A DNA stretch of 64,000 nt from the NCBI GenBank assembly GCA_937928555.1, contig CALFWR010000004.1, positions 15,513 to 79,512 on the forward strand, in the 5' to 3' direction. Made by a program: the position numbers and the translations under genes. The stretch is from an uncultured Pirellulaceae bacterium (GTDB taxonomy: Bacteria; Planctomycetota; Planctomycetia; Pirellulales; Pirellulaceae). The notes under the pieces were generated by a model, which saw only the letters and a program-made list of their open reading frames with translations, was not told where the DNA came from and searched no databases. Of this stretch, positions 12,538 through 52,601 are shown piece by piece (positions within the stretch are counted from its first letter, which is position 1; every line of letters starts with the position of its first letter).

Positions 12538-12562
12538 GTTGCCGAGTTTTTCGTGCTGAGTT

Positions 12563-12667
12563 CTCAATACTCAGTACTCAATACTCAATACTCAGTACTC
12601 AGTACTCAGTACTCAGTACTCAGTACTCAGTACTCAGTACTCAGTACTCGGTACTCGGTACTCAGCA
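12563..12667. repeat. Heptamer tandem array (CTCAGTA) x15
   Basis: 15 consecutive units (variants CTCAATA, CTCGGTA, CTCAGCA) between two convergent genes. Confidence 0.95.
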
Positions 12668-20420: not shown

Positions 20421-20746
20421 CATGAACACCCTCCCTCCGGGCCCTCCGGGGAGGGTCAACGTATCAGCGTCGGGGAGGGCTGGGTTCGGTTCCTGTTGAG
20501 GCTCAAATTTGTCTGGGTGTTGTCTTTGGTTGAACTAAAAATTCCGCGTGTCGAACGCCCCATCATGAACACCCTCACTCCGGGAGGGTCAACGTATCAG
20601 CGTCGGGGAGGGCTGGGTTTGGTTCCTGTTGAGGATCAAATTTGTCTGGGTGTTGTCTTTGGTTGAACTAAAGATTCCGCGTGTCGAACGCCCCATCATG
20701 AACACCCTCACTCCGGGAGGGTCAACGTATCAGCGTCGGGGAGGGC
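20421..20746. repeat. About 133-bp tandem repeat (2 full units plus a third palindrome), each unit carrying a CCCTCCC-family palindrome
   Basis: CATGAACACCCTC starts at 20421, 20564 and 20697; linkers near-identical. Confidence 0.92.
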
Positions 20747-27803: not shown

Positions 27804-28619
27804 TTAACCCTCGCGGCGATATTTGGCGCGGTACGCACTCGGCGGGATGCCGGCAATCTGGCGAAACTTTTTCGTGAAGTGGCTTTGATCGTAAAAGCCA
27901 ACTGTCAGGCCAATTTTGCCAACCGGGTCATTCGTTTCGGCAAGCAGCTTTCGGGCAAGCTGAATTCTTCGTGAGAGTACGAATTCTGTCGGAGACATTC
28001 GCAGGATCTTGCGGAAACGCTGATTGAAATGGGTTGACGAAAGGCCCGCCATCGAAGCCATCTTTGCCATCGATATCTGTTCAGTAAAGTGGCTGTCGAT
28101 AAAGTGGATCACCGGAGAGAGTTCCTGAAAGTAGCCTGCTTTTTCCTCAGGCGTACTGATCGGATACATCACGCCGACGATGCCCACCACTTCCTTTTCC
28201 GCGAACAGCGGCGCTTTGGAGGAAACGAACCACTGCGGCGTGCCGCGAACATGCGGCACCAGCCAAACCTGATTCGGGATCGACTGGCGGCGATCCATCA
28301 CCCGACGGTCCTCCGCATGGTAGGCAACCGCCAGAGCCGGAGGCTGAAAATCCGCATCGGTGCGACCAAGAAGATCCGCTGGATCAACCAAACCAAACAC
28401 GTTCTCAAGCGTCGCCTGATTGATGCCGATGTAACGGTGCTCCGCGTCCTTAGCGTAGAAGTAGATCGATGGCAGAAAATCGAATAACCGAATTACCGAC
28501 TGGATCGACCGCGCCGACGGATTTCGTTCGAAGAACTGATTCTGAAATGTAAAACCAGTCACTTCTGAGGGTCGATATTGTGGTTTTGTCGTCAAAACGT
28601 ACAAACATCCCGTTCGCAA
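27804..28619 (-). CDS. AraC-family regulator with PAS-like N-terminus (start uncertain)
   Basis: FYAKD, D..V.....I; C-terminal LA.MAGLSSTHFNQRF...P.EF....RI..A..LL...GFYDQSHFTK.F....GIPP..YR. Confidence 0.9.
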   Translation of the reverse strand: MRTGCLYVLTTKPQYRPSEVTGFTFQNQFFERNPSARSIQSVIRLFDFLPSIYFYAKDAEHRYIGINQATLENVFGLVDPADLLGRTDADFQPPALAVAYHAEDRRVMDRRQSIPNQVWLVPHVRGTPQWFVSSKAPLFAEKEVVGIVGVMYPISTPEEKAGYFQELSPVIHFIDSHFTEQISMAKMASMAGLSSTHFNQRFRKILRMSPTEFVLSRRIQLARKLLAETNDPVGKIGLTVGFYDQSHFTKKFRQIAGIPPSAYRAKYRREG

Positions 28620-28700
28620 CTACAAGACGGAGCTTATTCCTACAGCTATGTTTATATCGTTAACTGCGATTCCGCCAAACCTGATTGGTCAAATCATACC

Positions 28701-31700
28701 ATGCGAACCCGGCATTTTCCAATTTTCCTGTTCGCCCTGCTGACGCCTGCGACCGCGTTGGGACAGGAAATCTCGTTCAACCGCGATGTCCGTCCGATTA
28801 TTTCGGACAAGTGTTTTCATTGCCACGGTCCTGACGCCGACAACCAGCAATCGGACTTTCGTCTTGATACCCGCGAGCACGCTTTGGAGGCCATCACCGA
28901 AGGCAGTCTTGATGACAGTGAAGTCCATCATCGCATCCGCTCCGAAGATGGCGACGTGATGCCGCCTGCCGACGCGCCCAGGAAACTCACTGAAGCGGAA
29001 AAGGACATCATCGACCGGTGGATCAAAGCCGGCGCTCCGTTTGAAAAGCATTGGTCTTTCGAGCCTGTTCCCGACGCCACACCCGTTCCGAAAGTCCAAT
29101 CGGACTGGCCGGTAAACAACATCGACAGGTTCATCTACAAACGCATTGCCGACGCAAACAAAGTTCCCAACACCCCGGCCTCGAAAGAAAAATGGTTGCG
29201 GAAGGTCACCTTCGACATCACGGGCTTGCCGCCGGGGATCGATCAGATCGAAGCCTACCTGGCGGATGAGTCTGGCGATGCCGAAGAAAAAATCGTGGAT
29301 CAGCTTTTGGATTCCGACCCGTGCGCCGAACGGCTTGCCAGCGAATGGCTGGACGTCGCTCGCTACTCGGACTCGTACGGTTTTCAACGCGACGACGAAC
29401 GATACGTTTGGCCCTGGCGCGACTGGGTCATCAAGGCCTTTCGCAACAACATGCCGTACGATCAGTTCGTCACCTGGCAACTGGCCGGCGACCTGATGGA
29501 GAATCCATCGCGTGACCAGATCGTCGCCACCGTCTTCAATCGGCTTCACTCGCACAAAAAAGAGGGTGGCGTGGCGATCGAAGAGTTCCGCGTCGAAAAC
29601 GTTTCTGATCGCACCCATACATTCGCCGGCGCGTTCATGGGCCTGACGCTGGAGTGCGCCCGCTGCCACGACCACAAGTACGACCCGACCAAAACCAAAG
29701 AGTACTACGAGCTAAGCTCGTTCTTTGCCAACGTGGACGAAAACGGACTGATCTCCTACTTCACCGACGCGGTCCCCACGCCGTCGGCTTCGCTTCCGAC
29801 CGCCGAGCAGCAGAAAACACTCGACCTACAGCGAAGGGCAATCGATGCCGCGGCAGAAAAACTGGAGCAGGTCACCAACGAAAACTTGAGTGAGTTCTAC
29901 CAGTGGCATGCTTCCAAGCCCGGCGCCAACATTCCGGGTCTGGTCGCGCATTTGACCTTTGACTCGTTTAGCCCGATGCCCAAACCCGAGAAAGACAAAC
30001 CCTACAAAAATGAGCACGGCAACAAGAACATTTCTTACAAAAAACTTTCTCAAATCGAAAACCATGCCGATTCTAGCGATGCCTGGACGCTTTCCACCAA
30101 CAAGCTGGTCGATGGCAAGTTCGGCAAAGCCGTCGCTCTGACCGGCGACGATGCCGTCGTCCTTCCAGGCGTTGGTCATTACGGACGGCATCAGCCGTTT
30201 TCCATTTCGATTTGGATCAAGCCGGGTGAAGTCGAAGAGCGGGCAGTGATTTTTCGTCGCTCGCGTGGCTGGGATGACGCTGGCAGTGTCGGCTACGAAC
30301 TAACCAAAGTCGGTGCCACGCTGAGTGCAAAAATGGTTCACTTCTGGCCCGGCGAAGCGATCTGCGTTGAAACCGATGACGTCCTCAAGGCCGACCAGTG
30401 GCATCACCTTGTGCTGACTTACGATGGCTCCAGTAAAGCCGCCGGTATGAAACTGTACGTCGACGGCCAAGCCACCGGGCACATTGTTAAGGATCACCTT
30501 ACCAGACAGGTCACCACTTGGAACGCGGGCTATCAGGATCTTGCGATCGGCTCGCGCTACCGCGACCGTGGTTTCAAGGACGGTCAGGTTGACGAGTTTA
30601 AAGTCTTTGATCGCGAGTTGGCATGGCCTGAAGCCCTCCAGTTGTTCGATGGCAAGACGTTAATCGACTTGCTGGCCGACAAGGAGTTGACAGGAAACCA
30701 GATTGTCACCCGCAGACGTAGGGGCCTTGCGGACGTATTCGCACTGGGCCACAGCGAGCCAATTCAAGCCGCACGCAAGGAGTTGGAATCCGCTCGCCTG
30801 GCATGGAATAAAACCATGGACAGCGTTCCCGCGATCACCGTGATGCGGGAAACCGAAACGCCACGCGACGCGTTTATTCTCAAACGCGGTGCCTACGATG
30901 ACCGCGGCGAACAGGTCACCGCCAACGTTCCCGGATTCCTCTCCGCCTGGCCCGAAGGGGCGCCACGGAACCGCTTGGGGCTGGCCAGGTGGATCACGTC
31001 GCCGGACCACCCGCTGCTGGCCCGCGTGACGGTCAACCGTTATTGGCAATTGATGTTCGCTCAAGGCCTCGTCCGCACCCCGGAAGATTTTGGCTTGCAA
31101 GGCGAAGTGCCGACGCACCCGGAACTGCTGGACTGGCTTGCGAGAGATTTTATCGCAAACGGCTGGAACGTTCGTCGCTTGCTCAAGCAGATGGCTTTGT
31201 CGGCAACCTATCGCCAAAGTGCCATCGTCCCGCTGAGCGTCCGCCAGGAAGACCCCGAGAACAGGCTGCTGGCTCGCGGACCCGGCAACCGCATCTCCGC
31301 TGAAATGCTACGGGACAGTGTTTTGTTCGTCAGCGGACAGTTAAAACAAAAGGTCGGCGGGCCGCCGACCAAGCCCTACGATGTCGCCCTGGCCTACAAC
31401 CCGCTTGAAGTCGACGCCGGCGATGGGCTCTATCGTCGCAGTCTGTACACATTCTGGAAACGCTCCTCGCCCGCTCCGGTAATGATGACGATGGACGCCA
31501 GTAAACGTGATGTCTGCCGCGTCAAACGCGAAGTCACCGCTTCGCCTCTTCAGGCTCTGGTACTTCTTAACGGGACGCAGTTCGTCGAAGCCTCCCGAAT
31601 TCTCGCGGAGAAACTTCATCGTCAGTTCGATGGCGAGGCGGCAAAAATTGTCGACGAATCCTTCCAGCGATTGACCAGTCGCAAGCCGACCAAGGCGGAA

Positions 31701-31889
31701 GCCGATATTCTGCGTGCTCTTTATCAGGAGCAGTTGGAGCTATTCGAATCACAACCCCAAGCGGCCGCCGATGTCCTGCAAACGGGTTCGGCCAAAGCTG
31801 ACAAGTCGATCCCCGCGACCCAGCTTGCGGCAGCCACGATTACCGTAAACGCAATTTTGAATCTGGACGAAAGCGTGAGGCAACGATGA
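28701..31889 (+). CDS. Planctomycete cytochrome-c / DUF1549 / LamG / DUF1553 (PSD1) protein
   Basis: FNRDVRPIISDKCFHCHG, MPP, HWSF, ERLASEWLDVARYSDS, CARCHDHKYDP, NRLGLARWI, P.HPELLDWLA, QALVLLNG. Confidence 0.92.
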   Translation: MRTRHFPIFLFALLTPATALGQEISFNRDVRPIISDKCFHCHGPDADNQQSDFRLDTREHALEAITEGSLDDSEVHHRIRSEDGDVMPPADAPRKLTEAEKDIIDRWIKAGAPFEKHWSFEPVPDATPVPKVQSDWPVNNIDRFIYKRIADANKVPNTPASKEKWLRKVTFDITGLPPGIDQIEAYLADESGDAEEKIVDQLLDSDPCAERLASEWLDVARYSDSYGFQRDDERYVWPWRDWVIKAFRNNMPYDQFVTWQLAGDLMENPSRDQIVATVFNRLHSHKKEGGVAIEEFRVENVSDRTHTFAGAFMGLTLECARCHDHKYDPTKTKEYYELSSFFANVDENGLISYFTDAVPTPSASLPTAEQQKTLDLQRRAIDAAAEKLEQVTNENLSEFYQWHASKPGANIPGLVAHLTFDSFSPMPKPEKDKPYKNEHGNKNISYKKLSQIENHADSSDAWTLSTNKLVDGKFGKAVALTGDDAVVLPGVGHYGRHQPFSISIWIKPGEVEERAVIFRRSRGWDDAGSVGYELTKVGATLSAKMVHFWPGEAICVETDDVLKADQWHHLVLTYDGSSKAAGMKLYVDGQATGHIVKDHLTRQVTTWNAGYQDLAIGSRYRDRGFKDGQVDEFKVFDRELAWPEALQLFDGKTLIDLLADKELTGNQIVTRRRRGLADVFALGHSEPIQAARKELESARLAWNKTMDSVPAITVMRETETPRDAFILKRGAYDDRGEQVTANVPGFLSAWPEGAPRNRLGLARWITSPDHPLLARVTVNRYWQLMFAQGLVRTPEDFGLQGEVPTHPELLDWLARDFIANGWNVRRLLKQMALSATYRQSAIVPLSVRQEDPENRLLARGPGNRISAEMLRDSVLFVSGQLKQKVGGPPTKPYDVALAYNPLEVDAGDGLYRRSLYTFWKRSSPAPVMMTMDASKRDVCRVKREVTASPLQALVLLNGTQFVEASRILAEKLHRQFDGEAAKIVDESFQRLTSRKPTKAEADILRALYQEQLELFESQPQAAADVLQTGSAKADKSIPATQLAAATITVNAILNLDESVRQR

Positions 31890-33322
31890 GCAGGAAACTT
31901 TGCACTGGCTTCGACAATCAATTCTTTTCCCGCCGCGACGTTCTGCAAAAGTTCGGACACGGGCTGGGATCGATTGCCCTCGCGTCGCTTCTCTCAGGAG
32001 ACAAGGCGCTTGGTTCGGACGAGATCACGTTTCCAAATAAAACGCCAAAGGCCAAACGGGTAATCTTCCTGTTCCAGTCGGGAGCTCCGTCGCAGATGGA
32101 CCTTTTCGACTACAAGCCGCGGCTGAACAGGGATCACGGCAAGGAACTTCCTCCCGAAGTACGGAAGGGCCAGCGGCTGACCGGCATGAGCGGGCACCAG
32201 GCAAGCCTTCCGCTGGTGGGTTCGCCGTTCAAGTTCAAGCAGCATGGCGAATCCGGGCAGTGGATGAGTGACGTGCTCAAACATACTGCAGAGATTGCTG
32301 ACGATATGTGCATTATCAAATCGCTCAACACCGAAGCGATCAATCACGGTCCAGGTGTAACAATGATGCAAACCGGATCGCAGTTCCCCGGCCGTCCCAG
32401 CATGGGGGCGTGGCTGACGTACGGATTGGGAAGTGAAAGCGAAAACCTGCCTGGATTTGTGGTGATGGTCAGCAAAAACCGCGGCGGTCAGCCACTGTTT
32501 TCACGCCTCTGGGGAAGCGGCTTTCTTCCCGGCAAGTATGACGGCGTGCGTCTTCGACCCAGTAAAGACGCCGTCCTGTACCTCAACAGCCCCAAGGGCA
32601 TCAGTACCGCCAGTCGCCGCAAAGCTCTGGACAAAATCCAAGAGTTGAATCAGTTGCAGTTGGAACAGACCAGCGATCCGGCCCTCGAAACACGAATTGC
32701 CCAGTACGAGATGGCGTTTCGGATGCAGGGCTCGATTCCGGAAGTCACCGACATTTCCGACGAACCGCAGCACATTTTGGACATGTACGGTAAAGACGTG
32801 ACCGAGCCGGGGACTTTTGCGGCGAACTGCCTGCGCGCTCGTCGATTGGCGGAACGCGGGGTGCGATTTATTCAGCTTTACCATCCCGGCTGGGACCATC
32901 ACAGTGGATTGCCCAACGGACTGCGACACAAATGCAAACAGACCGACCAGCCCACCGCCGCGCTGATCAAGGATCTCAAGGCCCGCGGGATGTTGGATGA
33001 CACGCTCGTCATCTGGGGCGGCGAGTTCGGTCGCACCAGCTACTGTCAGGGCAAGATCGAGGGGACGAAATTTGGCCGCGATCATCATCCTCGTTGCTTT
33101 TCGATGTGGATGGCCGGAGGCGGAGTGAATGCGGGAACTTCGTATGGGGAAACCGATGAGTACAGTTACAACGTGGTCGAGAACGGCGTTCACATTCACG
33201 ACTTTCACGCCACGATCCTTCACCTGCTAGGCATTGATCATGAAAGGCTAACCTACAAATACCAAGGCCGACACTTCCGCCTCACCGACGTCCACGGCCA
33301 TGTCGTCAAACCCCTGGTTTGA
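31886..33322 (+). CDS. DUF1501 domain protein (usual partner of DUF1553)
   Basis: SRRDVL twin-Arg-like start, KRVIFLFQSGAPSQMDLFDYKP, PSMGAWLTYGLG, RLAERGVRF, WDHH, WGGEFGRT, GRDHH, RLTDVHG. Confidence 0.92.
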   Translation: MSRKLCTGFDNQFFSRRDVLQKFGHGLGSIALASLLSGDKALGSDEITFPNKTPKAKRVIFLFQSGAPSQMDLFDYKPRLNRDHGKELPPEVRKGQRLTGMSGHQASLPLVGSPFKFKQHGESGQWMSDVLKHTAEIADDMCIIKSLNTEAINHGPGVTMMQTGSQFPGRPSMGAWLTYGLGSESENLPGFVVMVSKNRGGQPLFSRLWGSGFLPGKYDGVRLRPSKDAVLYLNSPKGISTASRRKALDKIQELNQLQLEQTSDPALETRIAQYEMAFRMQGSIPEVTDISDEPQHILDMYGKDVTEPGTFAANCLRARRLAERGVRFIQLYHPGWDHHSGLPNGLRHKCKQTDQPTAALIKDLKARGMLDDTLVIWGGEFGRTSYCQGKIEGTKFGRDHHPRCFSMWMAGGGVNAGTSYGETDEYSYNVVENGVHIHDFHATILHLLGIDHERLTYKYQGRHFRLTDVHGHVVKPLV

Positions 33323-33428
33323 GTACTGTGTACTGGGTACTGGGTACTGGGTACTGGGTGCCTTGAAACACGGAATTCCGCACCAAACACTGGTTGCTCC
33401 ATTCCCCATTCCCACTTCCTCATTCCCC
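33321..33428. repeat. Upstream heptamer arrays: (GTACTGG) x5, then about 4 degenerate CCCATTC units
   Basis: Seen at 33323-33357 and about 33397-33428. Confidence 0.85.
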
Positions 33429-33493
33429 AGCGTGACTTTCCCCGGCCTCACAGCTACAATCCGCCGATCCCTTCTCCAACCTCCGAGGAACCC

Positions 33494-34120
33494 ATGGCCG
33501 GCGTTCGCAACTTCACTGACCTGAAGTTCTGGCAACGCTCTCGCCAATGGTCCAAGTCTATCTTCCAGTTCACCAAGAACGCCCCCTTCAGGTCCGACAA
33601 ACGTCTTGTCATCCAGATCAACGATTCCTCATCATCGGTCGTCGCCAACATCGCCGAGGGCTTCGGCCGCGGAACCCAGGGCGAGTTCGTCCAATTCATT
33701 GGCTACGCCATCGGTAGCTTGAACGAAACCCAAGCCCACCTGTGCGTTGCTTACGACCGCGAGTACCTCACGCGTGACCAATTCGGTCCATTGTTTCTCG
33801 AAGGCACAGAGATCCGGAAGATGACGATTGCTTTTCTGAAATCCATGACCAAACAGGGCTCCGGTGTCAAACACATCAAGAAGTTAAAGAGTTGGACCGA
33901 CGAAGTCTGGGAGAGCTGGGAGAAAGCCACCGGTAAGGAACGTCCCGACTGGATCAAACAGGGCCTCCCCTACCCCAACTTCCTCAAGGACCAGGAAAAG
34001 CGCGAGAAGGAACACCAGAGGCGCGAAAAAGAGAAAAACACGTCCGATGGAGAGGAAAACAAGTCCGATGGAGAGGAAAAGAAACGCGACGTAGAGCGAG
34101 ACAATCCAGACTGCGACTGA
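33494..34120 (+). CDS. Four helix bundle protein (23S rRNA IVP / TIGR02436-like) with C-terminal extension
   Basis: F.DL..WQ.S, L..QI..SS.SV.ANIAEG.GR....EF..F...A.GSL.ET...L..A.D..Y. Confidence 0.9.
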   Translation: MAGVRNFTDLKFWQRSRQWSKSIFQFTKNAPFRSDKRLVIQINDSSSSVVANIAEGFGRGTQGEFVQFIGYAIGSLNETQAHLCVAYDREYLTRDQFGPLFLEGTEIRKMTIAFLKSMTKQGSGVKHIKKLKSWTDEVWESWEKATGKERPDWIKQGLPYPNFLKDQEKREKEHQRREKEKNTSDGEENKSDGEEKKRDVERDNPDCD

Positions 34121-34140
34121 AAACCAAATTGCACCGTATT

Positions 34141-34270
34141 GAGTACCGAGTACCGAGTACTGAGTACTTACTCCCCACTCCCCACTCCCCACTCCCCACT
34201 CCCCATTCCCCATTCCCCATTCCCCATTCCCCATTCCCCATTCCGCACTCCCCATTCCCCATTCCCCATT
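34141..34270. repeat. Downstream heptamer arrays: (GAGTACY) x4, then (CCCCAYT) x14
   Basis: 34141-34168 and 34173-34270. Confidence 0.95.
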
Positions 34271-34319
34271 CCAACCCTCAACCCCAAGCCAAACCCTGTC
34301 CTCTTCCACACCCGAACTC

Positions 34320-36779
34320 ATGTCCCCCGCCGGTGGCTGGCAGCAACTCCATGCCGCCATCGAAGCCGGCGCTGATGCCGTCTACTTCGGTCTGAGCCAC
34401 TTCTCTGCTCGCGCAAAAGTCGGCTTCCACATCGGCGAACTGCCCAAAGTCCTCCAAACGCTCCACCGCCGCAGCGTCAAAGGCTTCGTCACCTTCAACA
34501 CCCTCGTCTTCGACCACGAAATCGAAACCGCCAAACAAGCCATCGAAGCGATCGCCGCTGCCAACACCGACGCGATCATCGTCCAGGACATCGGCATCGC
34601 AAAACTCGCCCGCGAAATCGCCCCGCAGCTCGCCATCCACGGCAGCACGCAAATGTCGATCACCAGCGCCCAAGGCGCCGAACTCGCCGCCGGCCTTGGC
34701 TGCTCCCGCGTCGTCCTTGGCCGTGAACTGAGCATCGCCGACATTCGTAAAATCGCATCGCAAACCGATGTCGAACTTGAATGCTTCGTCCATGGAGCCC
34801 TCTGCGTCTCCTACTCCGGCCAATGTTTCAGCAGCGAAGCGTGGGGAGGGCGAAGCGCCAACCGTGGCAAATGCGCCCAAGCCTGCCGCCTGTCCTACGA
34901 CCTGATCGTCGACGGCAAAGCTCGCGACCTCGGCCCCCACCGCTACCTTCTTTCCCCTGGAGACCTTTACGCGATTGAGCAAATTCCCGAACTAGTCGAC
35001 ATCGGCATCTCCTGTTTGAAAATCGAAGGCCGCTACAAGGACGCTTCTTACGTCGCGGCCACCACACGCGCCTACCGCGAAGCCATCGACCTCGCCCTGC
35101 TTGGTGTTGCGAACGAAACGACGGCCGAAAAAGCCCAACTTGAACAAATCTACTCCCGCGGCCTTGGCCCCCATTTCATGTCCGGCGTCAACCACCAGAA
35201 CGTCGTCATCGGCCGCGCCCCGCGTCACCGCGGCGTCAATGTCGGCACCGTTATCGCGATCAGCCAGTTCGGAATCGACGTCGAACTGGAACACGAAATC
35301 TCCCCCGGCGACGGGCTGGTCTTCGACGCCGCCGACTGGCGCAGCCCCGACGAGCCCGAAGAAGGCGGCAATGTTTACACTGTCAAACCACTTGCCGACG
35401 ACCTCGCCCGCCTGGCTTTCGAGCACGGCAAGCTGAACCTTGACCGCATCCGTCCCGGAGACCTCGTCTGGCGAACCAACCAACCCTCCCTGGTCCGCTC
35501 GCTCAAGTCAATTACGAAATCCTCCAAGCCCGTTTTCACCCGTCCGTTGGACTTCGAAGTCACCGCTTCGGTCGGCAAACCATTGGTCGTCACCGCGATC
35601 CACGAATCGGGGCTCAAGGCCCAATACACCTCTGAAGAGCCGCTGCAAGCTGCGCAAAAGCGAGCCCTCGACGATGAAACGCTCAGTGAGAAACTGGGTC
35701 GCCTCGGCGGCACCCCCTTTCACCTTGGCGAGATCATCCGAACCGAAACCGAAGCGGTCTTCGTCCCCACAAGCATCCTCAACGAAGCCCGCCGGGTGCT
35801 CGTCGAAGCCCTCCTAGACGCCGTAGCGACACGCAAGCCCGGCGGCAAGTCACCGGCGCCGATGCCCATTGCTTTCGCAAAATCCACCGCGCCCATCATG
35901 CCGCCCCCCGGTCCGCAACTGCACCTGCTGGTCCGCACTGCCGAGCAACTTGATGCCGCCCTCGCCGCCGCGCCCGCCTCGATCACGCTCGACTACCTCG
36001 AACTCTACGGCCTCCGACCGAGCGTCGAAAAGATCACCGCCTCCGGCATCACTGCTCGTGTCGCCAGCCCAAGGATCCTTAAACCGACCGAGCAGAACAT
36101 TTTTCGTTTCCTGTTGTCGTTGGATTGTGAAATCCTCGTTCGCAGCGGAGGGCTGCTGGTTGACCTGCTCAAATCCGACATCGATCCGACAAAGCTCATC
36201 GGTGACTTCAGCCTGAACGTTGCCAACGGCGAAACCGTCCGGACCTTCCGCGACATGGGCCTGCAGCGACTGACGCCAACCTACGACCTGAACGCCAAAC
36301 AGATCAGCGACCTTGCCGCGTCGAGTCCCGACCTGGAAGTCATCGCCTACAGCCACCTTCCGGTCTTTCACACCGAACATTGTGTCTTCTGCCGTTTCCT
36401 TTCCGAAGGCACCGACAACACCAACTGCGGCCACCCCTGCGAGACGCATCGAATCGCCGTTCGCGATCACGAAGGCCGCGAGCATCCGGTGATGGCGGAC
36501 GTGGGCTGCCGCAATACAGTCTTCGGTGCCCAAGCCCAGACGGATCCGTCATCGGTTCGCGATTGGCTTGATGCCGGCGTCAAAAACTTTCGACTTGAGT
36601 TCGTCTATCAGACCGGCGACGAAATCCATGCCATCGCGTCGGCTTTTCAAAGTCACCTAGTTGGAAAGTCCTCTGCCGGCGCGTTGGCCGAAACGCTTCG
36701 TTCCCACTCGGCTCAATCGACCACCCATGGCAGCCTGTACGTCCCCGAAGGATTCGGCAAACTGGTCCAGCTGAAGTAG
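34320..36779 (+). CDS. Large U32-family protein (RlhA/TrhP-like Fe-S RNA hydroxylase type) with DUF3656-like region
   Basis: AGADAVYFG, H.STQM, R.VL.REL, FVHGALCVSYSGQC.......RSANRG.CAQ.CR, LKIEGR.K. Confidence 0.88.
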   Translation: MSPAGGWQQLHAAIEAGADAVYFGLSHFSARAKVGFHIGELPKVLQTLHRRSVKGFVTFNTLVFDHEIETAKQAIEAIAAANTDAIIVQDIGIAKLAREIAPQLAIHGSTQMSITSAQGAELAAGLGCSRVVLGRELSIADIRKIASQTDVELECFVHGALCVSYSGQCFSSEAWGGRSANRGKCAQACRLSYDLIVDGKARDLGPHRYLLSPGDLYAIEQIPELVDIGISCLKIEGRYKDASYVAATTRAYREAIDLALLGVANETTAEKAQLEQIYSRGLGPHFMSGVNHQNVVIGRAPRHRGVNVGTVIAISQFGIDVELEHEISPGDGLVFDAADWRSPDEPEEGGNVYTVKPLADDLARLAFEHGKLNLDRIRPGDLVWRTNQPSLVRSLKSITKSSKPVFTRPLDFEVTASVGKPLVVTAIHESGLKAQYTSEEPLQAAQKRALDDETLSEKLGRLGGTPFHLGEIIRTETEAVFVPTSILNEARRVLVEALLDAVATRKPGGKSPAPMPIAFAKSTAPIMPPPGPQLHLLVRTAEQLDAALAAAPASITLDYLELYGLRPSVEKITASGITARVASPRILKPTEQNIFRFLLSLDCEILVRSGGLLVDLLKSDIDPTKLIGDFSLNVANGETVRTFRDMGLQRLTPTYDLNAKQISDLAASSPDLEVIAYSHLPVFHTEHCVFCRFLSEGTDNTNCGHPCETHRIAVRDHEGREHPVMADVGCRNTVFGAQAQTDPSSVRDWLDAGVKNFRLEFVYQTGDEIHAIASAFQSHLVGKSSAGALAETLRSHSAQSTTHGSLYVPEGFGKLVQLK

Positions 36780-42306: not shown

Positions 42307-42486
42307 GTAGGGCCGGTTCCCACCAGCCGTCAAGTAGTTAAGTAGGGCCGGTTCCCACCGGCCGCGCTTCAAACTTAAGTAGGGCCGGTTCCCACCGGCC
42401 GCGCTTCAAACTTAGGTAGGGCCGGTTCCCACCGGCCGCGCTTCAAACTTAGGTAGGGCCGGTTCCCACCGGCCGCGCTTCGAACC
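42307..42486 (+). repeat. Tandem array of five GTAG-type REP palindromes (37-bp period)
   Basis: GTAG-GGCCGGT-TCCC-ACCGGCC at 42307, 42342, 42379, 42416 and 42453 (first copy has one mismatch). Confidence 0.92.
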
Positions 42487-52533: not shown

Positions 52534-52601
52534 TTAATGTGGCACAGGCCTTGAGCCTGCGGTCAAACGCAACTTCACACTGCAAACTTCAAACTTTCAC
52601 C

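What the first reader, a model, noticed from the sequence alone, without database searches (positions are those of the whole stretch)
33321..34270. Four-helix-bundle gene enclosed by matching two-part heptamer arrays
Seen: both flanks have the same ordered structure, a GTAC-core heptamer run and then a CCCCAYT run. Upstream: (GTACTGG)5 then about 4 CCCATTC units. Downstream: (GAGTACY)4 then (CCCCAYT)14. The upstream array starts at the DUF1501 stop codon and the downstream one ends about 50 bp before the U32 gene, so the unit looks inserted between unrelated genes. The protein has an ~85-aa extension (Trp-rich, then charged). Established: this fold includes the 23S rRNA IVP proteins and the nucleic-acid-binding DGR accessory protein Avd; CCCCA(A/G)T heptamers resemble cyanobacterial STRR repeats. 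Inference: a minimal mobile or regulatory module in which the protein recognises, or travels with, 7-mer arrays.
Basis: partly seen in the sequence, partly recalled or inferred. Interest (0 to 1): 0.7.

Follow-up and report, generated by a model that had tools for sequence, protein, structure and literature searches.

The report
Four-helix-bundle gene cassette bounded by heptamer arrays
A small, highly conserved gene of unknown function sits between two runs of 7-base repeats, and the same pairing of this gene family with 7-base repeats turns up in four bacterial phyla, tying a long-unexplained class of bacterial repeats to one protein family.

Summary
A PF05635/TIGR02436 four-helix-bundle (FHB) gene (33494-34120) is flanked by (GTACTGG)5 and weak CCATTCC units upstream, and by (GAGTACY)4 and (CCCCAYT)14 downstream. 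Period 7 is the only tandem period enriched in the window.

The GTAC part is not chance. Across 76 planctomycete orthologue loci, runs of GTAC spaced every 7 nt occur at 2.25/kb within 400 bp of the gene and 0.014/kb elsewhere. Genomic context differs between lineages.

The link is general. Bacteroidota-type FHB genes are enclosed by inverted heptad arrays (60/75 loci). So are 12/14 cyanobacterial ones, where the units are STRR-like. Published data add Coxiella's 23S rRNA IVS and Xanthomonas XCC0516.

In the window the two GTAC arms are predicted to pair (-58 kcal/mol) and enclose the ORF, as in rRNA intervening sequences that RNase III cuts. The CCCCAYT array is a separate, lineage-specific repeat of the known GGGGANT class.

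Best reading: an IVS-type FHB cassette lying outside rRNA. The co-inheritance of gene and arrays is shown. Stem processing and protein binding to the heptads are inferred.

I found no paper making the general FHB-heptamer link. Interest is high.

The parts
33321..33359 (+). Upstream arm: GAGTACT, GTGTACT, then (GGGTACT)x4, i.e. the (GTACTGG)5.3 array. It starts inside the DUF1501 stop codon.
   Evidence: TRF. Sequence. Pairs with the downstream arm in the minimum-free-energy and centroid folds. Arm-arm duplex -58.3 kcal/mol against -23.9 +/- 4.2 for shuffled partners.
33399..33429 (+). Degenerate C-rich heptamers (CCATTCC x4.4). A direct, weak copy of the downstream C-rich array.
   Evidence: TRF (75% matches, score 41). 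Direct-repeat families D1 and D2. Not conserved in orthologue loci.
33432..33460 (+). Sigma-70-like promoter match (GTGACT, 17 nt, TACAAT), 34 nt before the start codon. A candidate only.
   Evidence: Consensus scan, (9 of 12 matches). If real, the upstream arm would not be part of the gene's own mRNA.
33494..34120 (+). Four-helix-bundle protein gene, 208 aa. Bundle at residues 12-118, conserved GSGVKH motif, conserved Trp-rich helix at 134-146, and a window-specific charged tail at about 165-208.
   Evidence: PF05635 at 5e-28. TIGR02436 at 94 bits. 866 homologues, 65-75% identical across Planctomycetota. Alignment. AlphaFold model with pLDDT 83. Foldseek hits to 2RLD, 2GSC and Avd 4DWL, TM 0.85-0.89.
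34030..34096 (+). 21-bp in-frame tandem repeat (about 3 copies) that builds the acidic/basic tail. Absent from all orthologues.
   Evidence: TRF. Alignment.
34136..34168 (+). Downstream arm: (GAGTACC)2 (GAGTACT)2, starting 16 nt after the stop codon.
   Evidence: TRF. Pairs 6 of every 7 positions with the upstream arm. 83% direct identity to the upstream arm, because the core is palindromic (family D3).
34172..34272 (+). (CCCCAYT)14.4 array. On the minus strand it reads GGGGAGT/GGGGAAT, a G4-type motif. Predicted unstructured as plus-strand RNA.
   Evidence: TRF. Fold energy 0.0 kcal/mol. Left single-stranded. Same unit class as Nostoc FHB arms and as the GGGGA(C/T)T repeats of Rehm et al. 2015.
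12559..12665 (.). Solo (AGTACTC)15 array of the same GTAC family, lying between the ftsY stop codon and a convergent ORF. No FHB gene is nearby.
   Evidence: TRF. tblastn finds one FHB gene in the whole window. Self-folds at -35.2 kcal/mol. Comparable solo arrays follow unrelated genes in other planctomycete loci.

Best explanation
The region 33321-34168 is a free-standing, IVS-type four-helix-bundle cassette: one Avd-like FHB gene enclosed by two arms built of 7-nt units with a GTAC (AGTACT) core.

Shown: gene and arms are inherited together across the phylum, whatever the neighbouring genes. The same gene-between-heptad-arms layout holds for other FHB subfamilies in other phyla.

Inferred mechanism:
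- The cassette is transcribed with, or through, its arms.
- The arms pair into a long stem with a mismatch every seventh base, closing the ORF into a loop. This is the arrangement of FHB-encoding intervening sequences of 23S rRNA.
- RNase III cuts this stem. That releases the FHB message and separates it from the neighbouring genes' transcripts.
- The pentameric, Avd-like protein probably binds the heptad stem, about one unit per subunit, to control its own expression.

The (CCCCAYT)14 array and its weak upstream echo are not part of the conserved cassette. They are a second heptamer repeat of the GGGGANT/STRR class that expanded beside it.
For: Co-inheritance in Planctomycetota:
- Runs of at least 3 GTAC at exact 7-nt spacing number 130 within 400 bp of the orthologue (57.8 kb) and 13 in the remaining 925 kb, a roughly 160-fold difference. 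No other palindromic 4-mer and no other period gives any such run.
- TRF-based counts agree: 103 near the gene, 9 far from it.
- Neighbours differ between lineages. The cassette lies after DUF1501 in the closest relatives, between a PSCyt gene and its DUF1501 partner in 9 loci, and elsewhere in the rest.
- In degenerate arrays GTAC is kept while the 3-nt spacer varies.

Pairing of the arms:
- The minimum-free-energy and centroid folds of 33315-34280 pair the two GTAC arms around the whole ORF.
- The arm-arm duplex is -58.3 kcal/mol, against -19.4 and -13.1 for each arm folded alone and -23.9 for shuffled partners.
- In L003 the downstream array ends with the exact complement of the upstream one.

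Generality:
- 60 of 75 Bacteroidota-type FHB loci have an inverted repeat between the flanks that beats all 20 shuffles. Only 8 of 75 have a direct repeat that does so.
- The lag-7 autocorrelation is 0.43-0.45 in the flanks against 0.26 in controls.
- The upstream heptad consensus equals the reverse complement of the downstream one in 29 of 36 loci. Between loci the units diverge faster than the protein does, so the two arms evolve in concert.
- 12 of 14 cyanobacterial FHB genes have heptad flanks.

Precedent:
- The Coxiella IVS carries the same protein family inside a 28-bp inverted-repeat stem. RNase III cuts this stem in vitro at the first of 2-3 tandem GACAGAT heptamers (PMC4990558).
- Avd binds RNA stem-loops and duplexes transcribed from its own locus (bioRxiv 10.1101/2023.10.23.563531).
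- Heptads per arm have a median of 4-6, and solved family members show 5 chains per entry.
Against: - There are no transcript data. No RNA run holds this locus, and the one run tried on a relative was uninformative.
- A sigma-70-like promoter match lies between the upstream arm and the gene. If it is used, the upstream arm is not in the gene's own mRNA.
- In planctomycete loci the 7th base shows no preference for complementarity between arms: 10 inverted, 6 direct, 19 neither.
- The spacer-order test in Bacteroidota loci found no in-register complementarity (mean z 0.35, low power).
- Long-range pairing in whole-transcript folds is only moderately above control ORFs for the planctomycete set: median 19 against 6 pairs, with 33% of controls also reaching 15 or more.
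- An RNA stem alone does not explain why the unit length is always 7.
- Mariniblastus fucicola keeps the gene with almost no array.
Confidence: 0.5

Rival explanations
1. DNA-level operator or centromere-like arrays. The FHB oligomer binds the heptads on double-stranded DNA, one unit per subunit or dimer, in the way the omega repressor of pSM19035 binds 7-bp heptads in either orientation. It would coat both flanks to autoregulate or insulate its gene. Any RNA pairing would be incidental.
For: The core is a palindrome (AGTACT), and it is strand-symmetric in use: TCA and TGA spacers are about equally frequent on both sides. GTAC is conserved while spacers drift, which fits repeated binding sites better than a plain stem. 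The fixed 7-nt period across lineages with different cores suggests a protein ruler. Non-palindromic cores stand in inverted orientation on the two flanks, as for symmetric DNA sites. A promoter-like site lies downstream of the upstream arm.
Against: No FHB family member is known to bind double-stranded DNA in a sequence-specific way. To my knowledge Avd binds nucleic acids non-specifically, and it binds RNA in the DGR particle. Proteins 80-85% identical have different heptad cores, CAAGC against CACGC against TAAAGC, which is hard to reconcile with tight sequence recognition. Arrays range from 2 to 65 units.
Confidence: 0.2
2. A gene-repeat partnership or mobile cassette, similar in logic to RAYT/REPIN. 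The FHB gene is the single-copy 'master', flanked by its own repeat family, and solo arrays or array hairpins of that family are dispersed through the genome. Either the protein helps the arrays to spread or persist, or the cassette relocates by recombination between arrays.
For: No genome contributed two orthologue loci, yet context changes between lineages, including placement inside PSCyt-DUF1501 pairs and inside cas, nrd and conjugation operons in cyanobacteria. Solo GTAC arrays follow unrelated genes at about 1 per 100 kb, including window 12559-12665. Planctomycete loci hold many heptad-array hairpins that look like empty cassettes. In X. campestris, 186 GGGAATC repeats are dispersed and one sits at the start of the FHB gene XCC0516. 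Ralph and McClelland proposed IVS mobility with the ORF as a mobility factor (cited).
Against: No nuclease, recombinase or reverse transcriptase is encoded in the cassette, and the protein is a 4-helix bundle without known catalytic residues. No empty or filled site pair was recovered. The nearest relatives are syntenic with the gene present. High sequence conservation fits vertical descent. I could not match dispersed heptad families to FHB paralogues genome-wide.
Confidence: 0.15
3. A contingency (phase-variation) locus. The heptamer arrays are slippage-prone repeats whose copy number tunes transcription, mRNA structure or RNase III targeting of the FHB gene or its neighbours, producing heritable expression variants.
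For: Copy number varies widely between species, from 2 to 65, and between Coxiella strains, 2 against 3 units. A published Haemophilus case links intergenic heptamer repeats, 5'-UTR structure and RNase III (PMC12721329, title and abstract only, listed).
Against: This does not explain arrays on both sides, their inverted symmetry in other phyla, or the conserved core. No within-population length variation was examined.
Confidence: 0.1
4. Coincidence or neutral by-product. Heptamer microsatellites and terminator hairpins are common in these genomes and merely happen to lie beside this small gene.
For: Non-GTAC heptamer arrays are fairly common in planctomycete intergenic DNA, at 0.07/kb. Within the single window, two of three arrays being adjacent has a chance probability of only about 0.1, by my own estimate.
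Against: The roughly 160-fold local enrichment is specific to GTAC and to period 7. It recurs in three phyla, with matched inverted arms.
Confidence: 0.05

Closest known systems
ORF-containing intervening sequences (IVS) of 23S rRNA (Leptospira, Coxiella burnetii; 'S23p' ORF)
   Same: Same protein family (PF05635). The ORF is enclosed by terminal inverted repeats that form a stem. Tandem heptamers lie just upstream of the ORF in Coxiella (GACAGAT x2-3), with strain-variable copy number. RNase III cuts within the stem at the first repeat (PMC4990558).
   Different: The window's cassette lies between protein-coding genes, not in an rRNA helix. Its arms are longer arrays with a palindromic GTAC core. 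The protein is a distinct subfamily with a conserved Trp-rich extension, and it is strongly conserved across a phylum, whereas the Coxiella ORF is decaying. RNase III processing is not shown here.
Avd, accessory protein of diversity-generating retroelements
   Same: Same fold: TM 0.87 to 4DWL, with hits to DGR particles 8UB7/8UB8. Pentameric, positively charged barrel. Binds RNA stem-loops and works beside an RNA duplex formed by sequences flanking the template, all transcribed from its own locus.
   Different: The gene's neighbours are DUF1501 and U32, not a reverse transcriptase, and I did not search for template/variable repeats. The NCBIfam Avd equivalog is not matched by the window protein.
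Heptameric simple sequence repeats: cyanobacterial STRR; GGGAATC of Xanthomonas and GGGGA(C/T)T of Nostoc (Rehm et al. 2015)
   Same: Period-7 tandem arrays, intergenic, close to the 3' end of the upstream ORF, single or as inverted pairs, variable in length, function unknown. The window's 34172-34272 array reads GGGGAGT/GGGGAAT on the minus strand. One Xanthomonas array abuts the FHB gene XCC0516.
   Different: Those studies treat the repeats as genome-wide SSRs or G-quadruplex motifs and do not connect them to FHB genes. The GTAC-core arrays here are not G-rich and cannot form G4 structures.
REP/REPIN elements and their RAYT genes
   Same: In logic only: a single-copy, vertically inherited gene flanked on both sides by its own short repeat, with copies of that repeat dispersed at gene ends elsewhere.
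   Different: RAYTs are IS200/IS605-type tyrosine transposases, while FHB has no catalytic fold. REPs are imperfect palindromes of about 20-40 nt, not tandem heptamers. Dispersal by FHB is pure conjecture.
Omega repressor / heptad operators of plasmid pSM19035 (from my own knowledge)
   Same: Arrays of 7-10 contiguous 7-bp units, functional in direct or inverted orientation, bound cooperatively by a small protein encoded nearby.
   Different: Omega is a ribbon-helix-helix dimer and its heptads sit in promoters. No DNA binding is known for FHB proteins.

Membership tests
PF05635 / TIGR02436 four-helix-bundle ('23S rRNA IVP', Avd-like) proteins | Profile match above the curated cut-off | tested here: met
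   Pfam 97.9 bits against a cut-off of 33.8. TIGR02436 94.2 bits against 24.
PF05635 / TIGR02436 four-helix-bundle ('23S rRNA IVP', Avd-like) proteins | Up-down four-helix bundle superposable on solved members | tested here: met
   AlphaFold model with pLDDT 83 and helices at 12-27, 36-56, 62-88 and 94-118. Foldseek hits to 2RLD, 2GSC and 4DWL with TM(target) 0.85-0.89.
PF05635 / TIGR02436 four-helix-bundle ('23S rRNA IVP', Avd-like) proteins | Homopentameric barrel | not tested
   2RLD and 2GSC each have 5 chains, and XCC0516 is described as a homopentamer. No multimer model was made for this protein.
23S rRNA intervening sequence (IVS) element | Inserted in helix 9, 25 or 45 of a 23S rRNA gene | tested here: not met
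   It lies between DUF1501 and U32 peptidase genes. No Rfam match in 32800-34800.
23S rRNA intervening sequence (IVS) element | ORF enclosed by complementary termini that form a stem | tested here: met
   Predicted only: the arms pair in the minimum-free-energy and centroid folds, with a duplex of -58.3 kcal/mol.
23S rRNA intervening sequence (IVS) element | Excision from the precursor by RNase III | not testable with these tools
   No RNA data for this or related loci.
DGR accessory protein Avd | Adjacent reverse transcriptase with template/variable repeat pair | tested here: not met
   The immediate neighbours are DUF1501, U32 and M3 peptidase. The NCBIfam DivGenRetAVD model is not matched by the window protein. 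The rest of the window was not screened for a reverse transcriptase.
G-rich heptameric SSR (GGGGANT / STRR class) | Tandem 7-nt units of type GGGGANT, intergenic, near an ORF's 3' end | tested here: met
   34172-34272, 14.4 units, reading GGGGAGT/GGGGAAT on the minus strand, 52 nt after the FHB stop. Class defined in PMC4692102. This applies to this array only, not to the GTAC arms.
G-rich heptameric SSR (GGGGANT / STRR class) | G-quadruplex formation | not tested
   The sequence fits G4-N3 repeats. Related oligonucleotides fold into G4 in vitro according to PMC4692102.
REPIN-RAYT system | Gene encodes an IS200/IS605-type (Y1) transposase | tested here: not met
   The only Pfam family matched is PF05635.
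REPIN-RAYT system | Single-copy gene flanked by its own repeat, which is also dispersed in the genome | tested here: inconclusive
   Flanking is met. Solo GTAC arrays exist at about 0.01/kb. No whole genome could be censused.

The most novel reading that the evidence does not exclude
PF05635 four-helix-bundle proteins are the dedicated partners of bacterial heptameric tandem repeats. These include the cyanobacterial STRRs, the GGGAATC repeats of Xanthomonas, and the GTAC and other heptads of Planctomycetota and Bacteroidota. Each FHB lineage would bind, and help to maintain or spread, its own 7-nt repeat family, with the unit length set by the pentamer's subunit spacing. The rRNA intervening sequences would then be cassettes of this kind that landed in rRNA genes. 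This would give a function both to a large orphan protein family and to repeats left unexplained since 1990.
Probability: 0.3. Interest if true: 0.9.

Novelty: new variant of a known kind. Interest (0 to 1): 0.8.

Why it matters
FHB ('S23p', TIGR02436) genes number in the thousands in Bacteroidota, Cyanobacteriota and Planctomycetota and have no known role outside DGRs. Heptamer repeats (STRRs and G-rich heptamers) are likewise unexplained, although they are used for strain typing.

A consistent physical link between the two, seen here in three phyla by computation and in two further lineages from published data, makes both questions testable. The tests are binding assays with defined heptad RNA or DNA, RNase III mapping, and array deletions in culturable carriers.

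The link also explains why FHB genes sit harmlessly inside operons (cas, nrd, PSCyt-DUF1501). It may explain their scoring as 'CRISPR-linked'. It also places the rRNA intervening sequences as a special case of a wider class of element.

Tried and rejected
- Exact-protein look-up of the window's FHB: not on record.
- RNA evidence: the only runs holding the window are marine metagenome DNA. One low-depth run for Stieleria gave two short contigs and no usable ends.
- Rfam: no family in 32800-34800.
- Intrinsic terminators: none found.
- PADLOC: no defence-system match.
- A four-sequence cross-subfamily alignment was too diverse for the locus scan.
- RNAduplex on 250-nt flanks gave meaningless, very long duplexes. 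Its only use was to reveal short degenerate GTAC runs that TRF had missed.
- Test for in-register complementarity of variable spacers: no signal, low power.
- Whole-transcript folds give only moderate separation from control ORFs.
- The idea that the C-rich arrays form part of the closing stem was rejected. They are direct repeats of each other and fold to 0 kcal/mol.
- The idea that the DUF1501/U32 context defines the element was rejected. Context is conserved only in the closest relatives.
- Literature searches for a described FHB-heptamer link found none. Only the isolated Coxiella and Xanthomonas observations turned up.
Full report
**1. What is in the window**

The plus strand carries four genes in a row:
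- a PSCyt1/PSCyt2/PSD1 gene at 28578-31889;
- its DUF1501 partner at 31886-33322, overlapping it by 4 nt;
- a 208-aa ORF at 33494-34120;
- a U32 peptidase gene at 34320-36779.

The 208-aa ORF is a clear PF05635/TIGR02436 four-helix-bundle (FHB) protein.

Tandem Repeats Finder reports four arrays around it:
- (GTACTGG)5.3 at 33323-33359, beginning inside the DUF1501 stop codon;
- a weak (CCATTCC)4.4 at 33399-33429;
- (GAGTACY) of about 4 units at 34136-34168;
- (TCCCCAT)14.4 at 34172-34272, ending 47 nt before the U32 start codon.

A scan of periods 4-12 found strong tandem runs only at period 7 and only at three places in the 64 kb. These are the two flanks of this gene and a solo (AGTACTC)15 at 12559-12665, after ftsY. 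The window holds only one FHB gene.

**2. The protein**

The search returned 866 homologues. The best 120 are 63-87% identical over the first ~155 residues and come from Pirellulaceae, Planctomycetaceae, Thermoguttaceae and Gemmataceae.

The alignment shows an invariant NIAEGFGRGTQ loop, a GSGVK motif and a Trp-rich segment (W134, W139, E143, T146, G147). The charged tail is unique to this protein and comes partly from a 21-bp in-frame repeat.

The AlphaFold model (pLDDT 83) is a four-helix bundle followed by a Trp-rich helix and a long charged helix. Its best structural matches are BT_0352 (2RLD), XCC0516 (2GSC), Avd (4DWL) and DGR particles. Sequence search of the PDB finds the same two uncharacterised proteins, each with five chains per entry. 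There is no PADLOC match.

**3. The GTAC arrays travel with the gene**

The nearest relatives keep the order PSCyt, DUF1501, FHB, U32. These are Mariniblastus fucicola (L001) and three Pirellulaceae MAGs (L002/L003, L004, L005).
- L002 has (AGTACCC)9 upstream and about 30 GTAC-type units downstream. The last of these are the exact complement of the upstream unit.
- M. fucicola has only two units.

A scan of one genome per species returned 79 loci. Among the 76 planctomycete orthologue loci analysed (75 from that scan plus the window itself):
- Runs of at least 3 GTAC at exact 7-nt spacing number 130 within 400 bp of the gene (2.25/kb) and 13 in the other 925 kb (0.014/kb). Four of those 13 in fact lie close to the gene.
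- No other palindromic tetramer and no other spacing from 5 to 12 gives a single run near the gene.
- 74 of 76 loci have an array on at least one side (TRF-based counts).

Units are mostly GTACTCA or GTACTGA, that is the palindrome AGTACT plus C or G, in either orientation on either side. Where arrays are degenerate, GTAC and the spacing persist while the 3-nt spacer drifts. Arms hold a median of 6 units upstream and 4 downstream. The downstream arm typically starts within about 20 nt of the stop codon.

Context is not conserved. Only L003-L005 share the window's neighbours. Nine loci have the cassette between a PSCyt gene and its DUF1501 partner, a pair that overlaps by 4 nt in the window. 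The rest lie elsewhere. No genome contributed two loci.

Solo GTAC arrays occur at roughly one per 100 kb, directly after the stop codons of unrelated genes such as a fucosidase, a UDP-glucose dehydrogenase and ftsY.

**4. The pattern holds for the whole protein family**

*First indications.* Two Chitinophagaceae FHB genes caught by the same scan (L077, L080) and a second FHB paralogue in L023 are each enclosed by inverted repeats built of 7-nt units with other cores.

*Bacteroidota-type subfamily.* I searched a Chitinophagaceae-type subfamily and analysed the 80 metagenome loci returned.
- 60 of 75 loci have an inverted repeat between the flanks that beats 20 of 20 shuffles. Only 8 of 75 have a direct repeat that does so.
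- Arms have a median length of 26 nt, end about 28 nt before the start codon and begin about 6 nt after the stop codon.
- They are heptads with lineage-specific cores: CAAGCnn, CACGCTn, AATAGTG, TTAGAnn, AAAGAnn, TTTGGCn, and even TCGTACn.
- Autocorrelation at lag 7 is 0.43-0.45 in both flanks of both subfamilies, against 0.25-0.27 at other lags and in control DNA.
- The upstream consensus heptad equals the reverse complement of the downstream one in 29 of 36 loci. Between loci, heptads diverge faster than the proteins do: 100% share the same unit at 90% protein identity or above, 10% at 60-70%, and 2% at 40-50%. The two arms therefore evolve in concert.

*Cyanobacteria.* Cyanobacterial plasmid FHB genes were found by tblastn (loci L162-L175). 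12 of 14 have heptad flanks, mostly inverted and STRR-like:
- (GGGGAGT/TAGGGAG)n ... (TCCCTAC)5 in Nostoc edaphicum;
- (GGGAACA)4 ... (TGTTCCC)7;
- (AGGTGAC)n ... (GTCACCT)4;
- (TCAGGAG)n ... CTCCTGA.

These genes sit inside operons: cas6|FHB|cas4 twice, cas10|FHB|cmr3, nrdB|FHB|nrdA in antisense orientation, and conjugation genes.

*Published data.* Two further lineages come from the literature.
- The Coxiella 23S rRNA IVS, which encodes this protein family, has 2-3 tandem GACAGAT units just upstream of the ORF within its 28-bp inverted-repeat stem. RNase III cuts at the first unit (PMC4990558).
- In X. campestris, one of the 186 GGGAATC arrays listed by Rehm et al. (repeat no. 15) lies at the start of XCC0516, the FHB of PDB 2GSC (PMC4692102, supplementary file 2).

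Neither paper draws a general link. Ten literature searches found no paper that does.

**5. What the arms could do in this window**

Folding 33315-34280 as RNA pairs the upstream GTAC arm with the downstream one, in both the minimum-free-energy and the centroid structures. The helices are 6 bp long and separated by single mismatches. The whole ORF lies in the loop and the (CCCCAYT)14 tail is left unpaired.

The arm-arm duplex is -58.3 kcal/mol. Each arm alone folds at -19.4 and -13.1 kcal/mol, and shuffled partners give -23.9 +/- 4.2.

This is the architecture of the ORF-containing rRNA intervening sequences, for which RNase III cleavage is experimentally shown. Avd, the one family member with a known role, binds RNA stem-loops transcribed from its own locus.

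I therefore favour a cassette whose arms form an RNase III-sensitive stem in read-through or own transcripts. This would release the FHB message and let the cassette sit inside operons without harm. The pentameric protein probably binds the heptad stem.

What is shown is the co-inheritance, the inverted symmetry, the period of 7 and the concerted evolution of the arms. What is inferred is transcription of both arms, cleavage, and protein binding.

**6. Weak points and rivals**

- There are no transcript data.
- A sigma-70-like promoter match lies between the upstream arm and the gene.
- In planctomycete loci the 7th base shows no bias towards complementarity between arms: 10 inverted, 6 direct, 19 neither.
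- Spacer order in Bacteroidota arms is not detectably complementary in register.
- Whole-transcript folds separate FHB genes from control ORFs only moderately. Median flank-to-flank pairs are 19 (planctomycete) and 43 (Bacteroidota-type), against 6 for controls.
- A stem alone does not explain the universal 7-nt unit. That points to a protein ruler acting on RNA or on DNA, as in omega-type heptad operators.
- Dispersed solo arrays and 'empty' heptad hairpins, changing contexts and the Xanthomonas case fit a RAYT/REPIN-like partnership or a mobile cassette. However, no catalytic function is encoded and no empty site was recovered.
- Phase variation through copy-number change is possible.
- Chance is excluded.

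**7. The C-rich arrays**

The 34172-34272 array and its weak upstream echo are direct repeats of each other and unstructured as RNA. Comparable arrays occur in only a few orthologue loci, for example (CCCCAAA)7 after (GTACCCA)17 in Stieleria.

On the minus strand the unit is GGGGAGT/GGGGAAT. That places it in the GGGGANT class, which is enriched in Nostoc and shown to fold into G-quadruplexes in vitro. It is also identical to a Nostoc FHB arm unit.

I read it as a second heptamer family that expanded next to the cassette. It is not part of the conserved design, so the 'matching two-part' structure is specific to this locus.

**8. Verdict**

The finding is real, and its central idea holds well beyond this window: an FHB gene forms a unit with 7-mer arrays. 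It is best filed as a new, free-standing variant of the IVS-type FHB element. The mechanism remains unproven. The general FHB-heptamer link appears undescribed and is directly testable.

Noticed in passing
window 12559-12665: Solo (AGTACTC)15 array between the ftsY stop codon and a convergent 280-aa ORF with no Pfam match. It belongs to the same GTAC heptad family as the FHB arms and self-folds at -35 kcal/mol.
   Followed up: partly
window 20444-20746: 133-bp unit repeated 2.3 times at 97% identity (TRF score 576). Nature unknown.
   Followed up: no
window 42307-42485: 37-bp unit repeated 4.9 times. Each unit carries a GGCCGGT...ACCGGCC hairpin. The units are tandem, with no spacers between them.
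   Followed up: no
window 52571-52596: (AACTTCA)3.7 heptamers in an intergenic leader. The same unit stands upstream of the Nostoc PCC 7120 plasmid FHB genes (L169).
   Followed up: no
L055 10100-11030: Three short runs of GTAC heptads lie inside a reading frame that looks like a DNA methyltransferase. They may be in-frame insertions of array units into a coding sequence. This is a nanopore MAG, so frameshift errors are likely.
   Followed up: no
L020 8715-8801; L033 13727-13798; L034 11429-11539; L037 70-148; L042 6816-6892; L052 918-994; L055 1953-2019; L061 5969-6055; L069 5087-5169; L073 5443-5523: Planctomycete intergenic DNA holds many non-GTAC heptamer arrays arranged as adjacent inverted pairs, forming hairpins with 6-60 nt loops. 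Units include AATGACN/TTGGTCA, which to my recollection is one of the cyanobacterial STRR units. They look like FHB cassettes without the gene.
   Followed up: partly
L163 1501-1860; L172 1483-1851; L175 1492-1848; L162 1489-1857: In cyanobacterial plasmids the FHB gene sits inside operons: cas6|FHB|cas4 twice, cas10|FHB|cmr3, and antisense between nrdB and nrdA. This may explain why '23S rRNA IVP' was scored as CRISPR-linked in PMC10910872.
   Followed up: no
L023 1239-1760: A second, different FHB paralogue in a planctomycete MAG is enclosed by a purine-rich arm (GGGGAGA-like units) and its pyrimidine-rich complement.
   Followed up: partly
L001 6559-9617: In Mariniblastus fucicola a BlaR-like M56 peptidase gene and a BlaI-like repressor gene, both on the minus strand, are inserted between the FHB gene and U32. 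The FHB gene there has almost no array (2 units).
   Followed up: no
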